Shown here one piece after another: positions 26,406 to 26,521 of a stretch of 64,000 nt of DNA. This DNA comes from a virus (taxonomy: Duplodnaviria; Caudoviricetes): IMG/VR virus record IMGVR_UViG_3300000727_000007, positions 1 through 64,000 of that record; one strand, given 5' to 3'. The notes under the pieces were generated by a model that worked only from the letters and a program-made list of their open reading frames with translations, had not been told where the DNA came from and made no database searches. The translations under genes were made by a program, and so were the position numbers. How positions within the stretch are numbered: the stretch's first letter is position 1; every line of letters starts with the position of its first letter.

Positions 26406-26521
26406 GATTTGGGTTGCGATAGATAAGGGTTACTTCGTAACGGTATCGAGACTTTATCTATAAAAAGTTTAGCGGTTCAACTCCGCGCTTAAAAAACTCT
26501 TATCGCCAATTCTCCCAAATT
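26406..26521 (+). ncRNA. candidate Y RNA 2 with a tRNA-like domain
   Basis: atttggg/cccaaat and gataagggt/actcttatc stems; conserved motif; internal gcgg-TTCAACT-ccgc T arm. Confidence 0.72.

What the first reader, a model, noticed from the sequence alone, without database searches (positions are those of the whole stretch)
26406..26521. Candidate Y RNA 2 holds D, anticodon-like and T arms in canonical order and has two competing folds
Seen: after TACTTCG come a D-like loop (taacggta, as in this virus's tRNA-Val), an acttt/aaagt arm, and agcggttcaactccgc, identical to the tRNA-Cys T arm. The conserved stem therefore replaces the acceptor stem, a different topology from both YrlA and the 26197 chimera. 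In addition, tagataagg (26420-26428) can pair with the proximal ctttatcta (26452-26460) instead of the distal actcttatc, which frees tatcgccaa to pair with ttgcgata. Inference: a tRNA-elbow decoy, possibly switched by Ro60 binding.
Basis: partly seen in the sequence, partly recalled or inferred. Interest (0 to 1): 0.7.

Follow-up and report, generated by a model that had tools for sequence, protein, structure and literature searches.

The report
Degenerate tRNA-like Y RNA beside viral Ro60
This 116-base stretch is one of four small partner RNAs ("Y RNAs") encoded just upstream of the Ro60 gene of a probable methanogen virus. It has the conserved Ro60-binding helix and a tRNA T arm copied from the virus's own tRNA-Cys, but the proposed D arm and two-state switch are weak.

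Summary
26406-26521 is a real member of a large YrlA/YrlB-like Y RNA family marked by an invariant UACUUCG. A covariance model built only from other loci hits the 92-kb virus record at just two places, and this is one of them (36.1 bits, E 1.7e-7).

- **Fold:** the model uses the distal 3' strand. The distal fold holds 76% of the ensemble, the proposed alternative 0.5% or less. The alternative is not conserved, and its two helices overlap by 2 nt.
- **T arm:** it is specifically tRNA-Cys-like (score 33; best of 300 shuffles 25).
- **"D arm":** it is a 3-4 bp hairpin with pair probability up to 0.39. Its 8-mer match to tRNA-Val has P about 0.08, and Rfam's tRNA and YrlA models find nothing.
- **Topology:** the D-AC-T order differs from YrlA but is not new. 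Chen et al. 2014 modelled D. radiodurans Yrn1 this way. Six better-preserved tRNA-order modules occur in related Ro60 loci, and the Rfam tRNA model scores four of them at 27-59 bits.

Verdict: a new, degenerate variant of a known kind. An earlier follow-up in this scan covered the neighbouring chimera on this genome; my look-ups were restricted to this genome.

The parts
26406..26413 (+). 5' strand of the closing (outer) helix, GAUUUGGG. It pairs with 26514-26521.
   Evidence: MFE and centroid folds. The same helix forms in a 166-nt and a 650-nt context. The outer helix covaries across the family (helix 1: 96% of cells paired, 6 of 7 pairs with changes on both sides).
26414..26421 (+). 5' side of the conserved internal loop, UUGCGAUA. 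This is the clade variant of the family's GYCGUAG and the presumed Ro60 contact, related to the published GNCGAAN0-1G / CGAA motif.
   Evidence: Repeated in the window's other modules (families D1 and D2). Aligned to the model consensus GUGcCGU.A. Motif named in PMC4201824 and PMC12135203.
26422..26430 (+). 5' strand of the 9-bp conserved helix, GAUAAGGGU. It pairs with 26496-26504.
   Evidence: Pair probabilities 0.79-0.90. Helix 2 of the family shows a change on both sides at all 9 pairs. Model R1 aligns this pairing.
26431..26437 (+). The family's invariant UACUUCG motif. Here its UUCG forms the 5' strand of hairpin 1.
   Evidence: Invariant columns in alignment A2. With its 5' context it occurs 449 times on the Ro60 strand and 17 times on the other strand across about 166 loci.
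26434..26450 (+). It is 3-4 bp and weak.
   Evidence: Pair probabilities 0.07-0.39. The register UUCG + 9 nt + YGRR recurs in 37 family modules, where it is usually an anticodon-arm mimic. The 8-mer match to the tRNA-Val D loop has P = 0.08.
26450..26469 (+). It is AU-rich. Its 5' half is the proximal partner in the alternative fold.
   Evidence: Pair probabilities 0.81-0.93 at 37 C, falling to 0.2 at 65 C. The loop is 8 nt rather than 7, and no sequence relative was found.
26471..26487 (+). T arm: a 4-bp stem GCGG/CCGC with an A-G mismatch at the fifth position and the canonical 7-nt loop UUCAACU. 16 nt are identical to the virus's tRNA-Cys.
   Evidence: Pair probability 0.96. The alignment to tRNA-Cys is well above shuffles. 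The exact 16-mer occurs only at 22411 and 26471.
26488..26495 (+). A-rich single-stranded linker CUUAAAAA between the T arm and the 3' strand. A tRNA has 0 nt here.
   Evidence: Unpaired in all folds. The tRNA-order relatives have 0-7 nt at this place.
26496..26504 (+). 3' (distal) strand of the 9-bp conserved helix, ACUCUUAUC.
26505..26513 (+). 3' side of the conserved internal loop, GCCAAUUCU. It corresponds to the family tail CGCnUGUURC.
   Evidence: (families D3 and D4).
26514..26521 (+). 3' strand of the closing helix, CCCAAAUU.
26751..28289 (+). Ro60/TROVE gene (512 aa), the presumed protein partner. It lies 230 nt downstream on the same strand.
   Evidence: Pfam TROVE PF05731, 3.2e-30. 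The Ro60 vWA domain PF25045 scores 26.9 bits, just under its 27.7-bit cut-off.
26115..26188 (+). Sister module Y RNA 1, a short YrlB-like form with a 20-nt insert.
   Evidence: R1 49.6 bits, E 3.4e-11.
26542..26699 (+). Sister module Y RNA 4, with the same 5' motif and a 107-nt insert.
   Evidence: Motif and partner search. R1 gives only a partial hit of 10.4 bits.

Best explanation
26406-26521 encodes a Ro60 partner RNA (Y RNA) of a YrlA/YrlB-like family defined by a bulged closing helix, a conserved internal loop (here UUGCGAUA opposite GCCAAUUCU), a covarying 9-bp helix and an invariant UACUUCG.

It has one dominant fold. The conserved helix closes a four-way junction that carries:
- a marginal hairpin 1 (UUCG/CGAG),
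- an AU-rich hairpin 2,
- a tRNA-type T arm that was copied from, or converted by, the virus's own tRNA-Cys gene.

**Shown here:** family membership, the distal pairing, and the origin of the T arm.

**Inferred by analogy** with D. radiodurans Yrn1-PNPase, Salmonella YrlA and the phage phiLo Yrl RNAs:
- The viral Ro60 binds the conserved helix and loop.
- The T arm is the effector face, possibly docked on the GG of hairpin 1 as a partial elbow. It presents a tRNA-like surface to a tRNA-binding enzyme or nuclease.
- This ties that partner to Ro60 within the virus's tRNA supply and repair island.

The tRNA order of the arms places it with a minority class of this family and with Yrn1. It is the most degenerate member of that class.
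For: 1. **Location:** 230 nt upstream of a TROVE/Ro60 gene on the same strand. It is one of four tandem modules sharing the 5' and 3' motifs.
2. **Family membership:** model R1 was built from 32 modules of other loci. It shows 89.9% of cells paired against 60% in shuffles, and a covariation score of 0.82 against 0.23 in shuffles and 0.12-0.19 in slid controls. It hits the whole 92-kb record only at 26115-26188 and 26408-26519. The latter scores 36.1 bits (E 1.7e-7) full-length, with the distal strand as partner.
3. **Link to a known family:** related modules reach Rfam YrlA RF02553 at 31-44 bits, below its 69-bit gathering score. The motif shows a strand bias of 449 to 17.
4. **Fold:** the distal helix holds 76% of the ensemble and is stable in the array context.
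5. **T arm:** canonical loop, G-C closing pair, and specific similarity to tRNA-Cys.
6. **tRNA-order relatives:** L108 1103 (tRNA model 58.7 bits), L017 5872 (49.9), L157 6339 (48.7, model positions 7-64), L074 4329 (27.4), L082 4443 and L022 4214.
7. **Closest viral relative:** L001 (Ro60 53% identical) has a module with a hairpin followed by a T arm.
8. **Published precedent:** Yrn1's tRNA order, and a possible T arm in M. smegmatis YrlB (PMC4201824). A phage Ro60 binds two upstream Y-like RNAs and host PNPase (PMC12135203).
Against: - There are no expression data and no ortholog of this particular module, so hairpins 1 and 2 and the T arm have no covariation support of their own.
- The T stem has only 4 Watson-Crick pairs.
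- Hairpin 1 is marginal.
- An 8-nt linker separates the T arm from the helix, so an acceptor/T-type coaxial stack is not enforced.
- Rfam's tRNA, YrlA and Y_RNA models all miss it at E<=10.
- The Ro60 motif departs from the published GNCGAA/CGAA (here CGAUA).
- The modules used for R1 were picked by a pairing rule that finds a partner in 22% of shuffled controls, against 74% of real cases. The covariation figures are therefore somewhat inflated.
- The record holds no RtcB, and a PNPase-type partner is not expected in a methanogen, so the effector partner is unknown.
Confidence: 0.7

Rival explanations
1. One reading: a bistable RNA. The 5' strand alternates between the distal strand (tRNA-like junction, elbow exposed) and the proximal CUUUAUCUA(U) (elbow destroyed). 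Ro60 binding selects one state.
For: - A 10-bp alternative helix exists and is longer than in most shuffles (P = 0.013).
- It ranks in the top 3 of 130 family inserts of 40 nt or more.
- Its mean pair probability rises to 0.07-0.10 at 50-65 C.
- It appears as the MFE only in 3'-truncated transcripts of 100-105 nt, which hold the distal strand but lack the 3' outer strand.
Against: - At 37 C the alternative takes 0.5% of the ensemble, and 0.14% with the second helix, against 76% for the distal fold. The MFE gap is 3.7 kcal/mol.
- The two alternative helices overlap by 2 nt.
- The family shows no such partner, and the other two long cases are probably mis-assigned 3' strands.
- The family model and the covariation support the distal pairing only.
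- Ro60 is expected to bind the conserved distal helix, which would further disfavour the alternative.
Confidence: 0.07
2. A decaying duplicate. Only the Ro60-binding helix is under selection, so the RNA acts as a simple gate or cap for Ro60, or is a pseudogene. The insert is evolutionary debris that happens to include a recently acquired fragment of tRNA-Cys.
For: - The T stem is 4 bp with an A-G mismatch.
- The hairpins are AU-rich and low in complexity.
- There is no tRNA-model signal.
- No ortholog was found.
- About 119 of 317 family modules show no T arm under the simple T-arm pattern used.
Against: - The T loop and its closing pair are intact and identical to a working tRNA.
- T-arm-bearing modules are the majority in the family: 198 of 317.
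- A hairpin-plus-T-arm module recurs in the nearest relative, L001.
- The virus keeps four differently built modules rather than copies of one.
Confidence: 0.18
3. Not a free small RNA. It would instead be a structured part of the rsr mRNA leader that binds Ro60 in cis for autoregulation, or that acts as a processing signal for the array.
For: - No sigma-70-type promoter or strong terminator separates the modules from the Ro60 gene. The scan does not model archaeal promoters.
- In M. smegmatis the Y RNAs are processed from the rsr precursor (PMC4201824).
Against: - Co-transcription followed by processing is the known route to free Y RNAs, so this does not exclude a stable RNA.
- The module lacks an acceptor-like stem, which makes RNase P recognition unlikely.
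- The closed 5'/3' helix is typical of stable Y RNAs.
Confidence: 0.05

Closest known systems
D. radiodurans Yrn1 (Chen et al. 2000, 2013, 2014; PMC4201824)
   Same: It is a Ro60-bound RNA whose 5'/3' helix occupies the acceptor position. D-loop-like features, a 5-bp 'anticodon arm' with a non-canonical loop size, and a T arm follow in tRNA order. The D arm is incomplete in both.
   Different: - No sequence relationship was tested, and Chen et al. found no Yrn1 orthologs by BLAST.
- The Yrn1 Ro site keeps both strands of the metazoan-type helix. This RNA instead has the UACUUCG-family site.
- Yrn1's partner is PNPase. The host here is a probable methanogen, and no partner is known.
YrlA (Rfam RF02553; Salmonella, M. 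smegmatis, mycobacteriophages)
   Same: It is encoded beside Ro60 on the same strand. It has a terminal helix with a CGAA-type motif on the 5' strand and a tRNA-like effector domain with a T arm. Relatives of this module score 31-44 bits on RF02553.
   Different: - The arm order in YrlA is T, acceptor-like hairpin, D (permuted). Here it is hairpin 1, hairpin 2, T, with nothing after the T arm.
- RF02553 gives no hit here even at E<=10.
M. smegmatis YrlB and Thermus phage phiLo Yrl1/Yrl2 (PMC4201824; PMC12135203)
   Same: These are second, simpler Y RNAs encoded upstream of Ro60 together with others. YrlB has a possible T arm only. The phiLo RNAs are phage-encoded and bind the phage Ro60.
   Different: They differ in sequence families and hosts. 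The phiLo RNAs are described as stem-bulge-stem without tRNA-like arms.
tRNA-order modules of the same family found here (L108 1103, L017 5872, L157 6339, L074 4329, L082 4443, L022 4214)
   Same: They share the same helix and UACUUCG, followed by UA, then a D arm, a hairpin, a short variable loop, a T arm, and 0-7 nt before the 3' strand. L108 carries the same D loop, AACGGUA.
   Different: - Four of them are scored by the Rfam tRNA model: three at 49-59 bits and L074 4329 at 27.4 bits, just under the 29-bit gathering score. ARAGORN calls two of them.
- The window's copy scores nothing.
- Its D stem borrows UUCG from the motif, its hairpin 2 has an 8-nt loop, and its T stem has 4 bp.

Membership tests
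Y RNA (Ro60 partner RNA), UACUUCG subfamily | Encoded next to a Ro60/TROVE gene on the same strand | tested here: met
   The module ends 230 nt upstream of the TROVE ORF at 26751-28289 (+). The family motif is biased 449:17 to the Ro60 strand.
Y RNA (Ro60 partner RNA), UACUUCG subfamily | 5' and 3' ends form a bulged helix, an internal loop and a covarying helix that match the family profile | tested here: met
   Model R1, built without window sequences, scores 36.1 bits (E 1.7e-7) full-length. Family covariation is shown.
Y RNA (Ro60 partner RNA) | Literal published Ro-site motif GNCGAAN0-1G (Chen 2014) or CGAA (phiLo) | tested here: not met
   The sequence is UGCGAUAG, two mismatches from the motif. 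The same variant (CGAUA, or UGUA/CGUAA) is shared by the virus clade W, L001, L012, L013 and L018. The HGTV-1 chimera has GCGAUUG.
Y RNA (Ro60 partner RNA) | Physically bound by Ro60 | not testable with these tools
   Needs a pull-down or gel shift.
YrlA (Rfam RF02553) | Reaches the Rfam gathering score (69 bits) | tested here: not met
   No hit at E<=10 in the 901-nt and 136-nt searches.
YrlA (Rfam RF02553) | Effector domain ordered T arm, acceptor-like stem-loop, D arm | tested here: not met
   The T arm is the last element, with only 8 nt after it.
tRNA (RF00005 / ARAGORN) | Cloverleaf recognised by tRNA models | tested here: not met
   No call or hit.
Yrn1-type topology | Ro helix in the acceptor position, then D-like, anticodon-like and T elements in tRNA order | tested here: met
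   Predicted secondary structure. The description of Yrn1 comes from PMC4201824. Sequence homology to Yrn1 was not tested.
tRNA elbow mimic | D-loop GG docking on T-loop U55/C56 | not testable with these tools
   The required T-loop residues and a GG in the hairpin-1 loop are present. No 3D or probing tool is available.
Bistable RNA switch | Two mutually exclusive folds of comparable stability, both conserved | tested here: not met
   The split is 76% against 0.5% or less of the ensemble. The alternative is not conserved.

The most novel reading that the evidence does not exclude
The virus keeps a set of Ro60 partner RNAs that each present a different part of a tRNA: a short module, a complete open-ended tRNA chimera, this acceptor-less 'elbow only' module, and a long fourth one. 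Y RNA 2 would form a working D/T-type elbow without an acceptor stem. Ro60 could then be aimed at, or shielded from, elbow-reading factors of an archaeal host, such as RNase P, tRNA modification enzymes or a tRNA-targeting defence. The proximal helix would be a folding intermediate or a temperature-sensitive off-state.
Probability: 0.15. Interest if true: 0.65.

Novelty: new variant of a known kind. Interest (0 to 1): 0.42.

Why it matters
Y RNAs with tRNA-like domains are known in bacteria and a few phages. Their effector partners are mostly unknown, and I found no paper describing them for archaeal viruses (one literature search). This module adds three points:

- The Yrn1-type (tRNA-order) arrangement recurs in the large UACUUCG family and in a probable methanogen virus.
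- Y RNA effector domains can be rebuilt from the carrier's own tRNA genes, here the T arm of tRNA-Cys.
- One virus can carry several differently wired partner RNAs for one Ro60.

By itself the module is a degenerate member, and it gives no support to the more exciting switch idea.

Tried and rejected
- **Rfam scans:** the window at gathering thresholds, then 25900-26800 and 26395-26530 at E<=10, gave no tRNA, YrlA or Y_RNA hit on this module.
- **DNA similarity:** a search of 25900-28400 against 50,697 phage records found nothing.
- **Orthologs:** I searched through the Ro60 protein in viral, metagenome and genome contigs. The best relatives are 53% and 44% identical, and none carries an ortholog of this module. 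Its internal hairpins therefore cannot be tested by covariation.
- **A model of the tRNA-order class:** MAFFT alignment A1 mis-registers the D and anticodon arms. I built no model of that class and used Rfam tRNA scores instead.
- **Direct repeat:** the 22-nt repeat 26287-26308 / 26442-26463 (77% identity) looked like a trace of duplication. By my own estimate about two such pairs are expected by chance in this region, so I dropped it.
- **Capture of T arms from neighbouring tRNAs as a family-wide rule:** 13.6% of modules match in their own locus against 5.6% in other loci. One very common T arm drives this, so the test is inconclusive.
- **Promoter/terminator scan:** it uses bacterial consensus only and is uninformative for an archaeal virus.
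- **RtcB:** none was found in the record.
- **My first constrained fold of the alternative structure:** it used wrong indices for the second helix. I redid it correctly.

Full report
**Setting.** The window comes from a 91,920-base IMG/VR record classed as a provirus.
- It carries 25 tRNA genes.
- It has an RlaP-type nucleotidyltransferase gene at 24306-25085 and a TROVE/Ro60 gene at 26751-28289.
- It also has an anaerobic ribonucleotide reductase and a contractile-tail baseplate.
- The baseplate J protein matches Methanobacterium virus PhiF1 best (33% identity over 98%, E 3e-52). All other hits are haloarchaeal tailed viruses.
- Among isolates, the Ro60 matches Halogranum virus HGTV-1 best (32%).

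An archaeal, probably methanogen, host is therefore likely, as earlier notes of this scan proposed.

**The observation.** Every string is at the stated place. Between 26100 and 26700 four modules share the 5' motif GCGAUAGAnAAGnnnUACUUCG and a 3' motif CUCUUnUC...UUCUCC. The minimum-energy fold of 26406-26521 has these parts:
- an 8-bp closing helix;
- an 8 x 9 nt internal loop;
- a 9-10 bp helix;
- a four-way junction with a 3-bp hairpin (loop UAACGGUAU), a 6-bp AU hairpin (8-nt loop), and a 4-bp T arm with loop UUCAACU.

**Is it a Ro60 partner RNA?** UACUUCG, preceded by GG-U-GY-CGUAG plus 8-9 nt, recurs in tandem next to Ro60 genes in viral, metagenomic and Bacteroidota genome loci.
- There are 449 copies on the Ro60 strand and 17 on the other.
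- 74% have a 3' partner, against 22% in shuffled controls.
- Several copies reach Rfam YrlA at 31-44 bits, below its 69-bit gathering score.
- An alignment of 32 short modules from other loci shows strong covariation in both helices. 89.9% of cells are paired against 60% in shuffles, with 153 double changes against 43. The covariation score is 0.82, against 0.23 in shuffles and 0.12-0.19 in slid controls. The modules were chosen by a pairing rule, so these figures are somewhat inflated.
- The model built from that alignment hits the 64-kb window, and the whole 92-kb record, only at 26115-26188 (49.6 bits) and 26408-26519 (36.1 bits, E 1.7e-7). Both hits are full-length. In the second, a 47-nt insertion sits in the loop and the distal ACUCUUAUC is the 3' strand.

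Membership of the family and the distal pairing are therefore well supported.

**The T arm.** The 16-mer AGCGGUUCAACUCCGC occurs only here and in tRNA-Cys. The local alignment extends to 20 of 22 positions with a 2-nt indel. It scores 33, against a shuffle mean of 17 and a maximum of 25, and no other tRNA of the virus has this T loop. The stem sequence is free to vary yet is identical. I infer recent copying or gene conversion from tRNA-Cys, which lies 4 kb upstream. The fifth stem pair is lost (A-G).

**The "D" and "anticodon" arms.**
- Hairpin 1 has pair probabilities of 0.07-0.39.
- Its 8-mer match to the tRNA-Val D loop has a chance probability of 0.08.
- Its register (UUCG, 9 nt, YGRR) is the modal one in the family, found in 37 modules. 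There it is normally a 5-bp, 7-nt-loop anticodon-arm mimic followed by an AGGUC-type variable loop and the T arm.
- Hairpin 2 is stable at 37 C but AU-rich, with an 8-nt loop.
- The Rfam tRNA model and ARAGORN see nothing here, even in a 136-nt search at E<=10.

**Topology.** Of 317 non-redundant modules, about 101 have the YrlA order (T arm, hairpin, D arm). About 119 show no T arm under the simple T-arm pattern used. A small class has the tRNA order.
- In that class the motif is followed by UA, a 4-bp D arm, a hairpin, a 4-5 nt variable loop, a T arm and 0-7 nt.
- The tRNA model scores four of these modules at 58.7, 49.9, 48.7 and 27.4 bits. ARAGORN calls two of them as tRNAs that start exactly at UACUUCG.
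- The window's module has this order but is the most eroded example.
- Chen et al. 2014 had already modelled Yrn1 of D. radiodurans with this orientation and contrasted it with YrlA.
- The nearest viral relative, L001, has a module with a hairpin followed by a T arm.

**The two folds.**
- The alternative helix is real and 10 bp long. A helix that long arises by chance with P = 0.013. Only three of 130 family inserts of 40 nt or more have one, and two of those look like mis-assigned partners.
- At 37 C the distal 9 bp hold 76% of the ensemble. The proximal 10 bp hold 0.5%, and proximal plus the second helix 0.14%. The MFE gap is 3.7 kcal/mol.
- In the context of the whole array the figures are the same.
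- The two alternative helices share two bases.
- At 50-65 C the proximal pairs reach a probability of 0.07-0.10.
- The alternative is the MFE only in 3'-truncated transcripts of 100-105 nt, which already contain the distal strand but lack the 3' outer strand.
- Nothing in the family supports a conserved switch.

**Mechanism (inferred).** The viral Ro60 binds the conserved helix and loop. The T arm, perhaps docked on the GG of hairpin 1, offers a tRNA-like face to a tRNA-binding factor. This follows the precedents of Yrn1 with PNPase, of YrlA with TruB and DusA, and of the phiLo Yrl RNAs with PNPase. The partner is unknown, and the record has no RtcB.

**Verdict.** This is a genuine Y-RNA-type gene with a single dominant fold: a new, degenerate variant of a known kind.

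Noticed in passing
L108:1082-1191, L017:5851-5983, L157:6319-6426: In Bacteroidota and large-virus Ro60 loci, tRNA bodies sit in tRNA order inside the Ro60-binding helix. They score 49-59 bits on Rfam tRNA. In L108, ACUUCG of the invariant motif is itself the acceptor 5' strand, with a perfect CGAAGU partner. L157 has no acceptor stem.
   Followed up: partly
L017:5627-5756: A full-scoring tRNA (62 bits; ARAGORN calls tRNA-Tyr) lies directly after UACUUCG, inside a called Y module. In this 195-kb contig tRNAs and Y modules alternate in one array.
   Followed up: partly
L086:4065, L056:1662, L087:4495, L091:2469 (positions of UACUUCG): A third wiring: GGUA-GAGC follows the motif, and UA-GCUY-AGUU precedes the 3' strand. 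The D stem would then be formed by the two ends of the insert, with the Ro helix emerging from the D loop.
   Followed up: no
L040:4532, L055:2899, L068:3548, L052:4410, L037:4393, L084:4203, L078:1806, L025:4109, L036:4412 (positions of UACUUCG): A conserved subclass of inserts. Most have GGGGAGGAAUAGC...GGCUAU followed by a T arm and GCCCC, and L078, L025 and L036 are more divergent. An inner GGGG/CCCC helix plus a T arm recalls a tmRNA-type tRNA-like domain.
   Followed up: no
L002:2598-2671, L006:2512-2583, L129:2748-2819, L141:2855-2922, L070:2580-2648: ARAGORN miscalls YrlA-order modules as tRNAs. In L002 and L006, which I inspected, hairpin 1 (UUCGA, a 7-nt CUNNNAA loop, UCGAG), the AGGUC linker and the T arm copy an anticodon arm, variable loop and T arm. 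These domains look like whole tRNAs opened between positions 26 and 27.
   Followed up: partly
L172:7-138 (Halogranum virus HGTV-1, NC_021328.1 70440-70571): The annotated 'tRNA-Asp + intron' contains GCGAUUGGAAGCGU-UACUUCG and an upstream complementary strand. It is a permuted tRNA/Y RNA chimera like the window's 26197-26372, about 2.8 kb upstream of that virus's Ro60. A nucleotidyltransferase gene follows that Ro60.
   Followed up: partly
window 26197-26372: In the neighbouring chimera, CUUC of UACUUCG can pair with GAAG after the D arm of the upstream half. Hairpin 1, hairpin 2 and the T arm follow the motif in the same order as in Y RNA 2. Y RNA 2 therefore resembles the chimera's 3' half closed directly by a 3' strand.
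   Followed up: partly
window 26115-26188 and 26542-26699: Y RNA 1 is a strong short module (49.6 bits). Y RNA 4 has the 5' motif and a plausible 3' partner, with a 107-nt insert of unknown build (only a partial model hit).
   Followed up: partly
window 26410-26517; also L001, L012, L013, L018: The virus clade has its own version of the Ro site. It reads GG-Y-UG-(C/U)G(A)UA-G opposite AUU-CU-CC, a U-U plus G-C step, where the Bacteroidota consensus has GG-U-GY-CGUAG opposite GUU-RC-CC with a covarying Y-R pair.
   Followed up: partly
window 24306-25085 and 17706-19838: An RlaP-family nucleotidyltransferase gene (PF10127, 3.8e-37) sits inside the tRNA array. An NrdD anaerobic ribonucleotide reductase gene points to an anaerobic host.
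   Followed up: no
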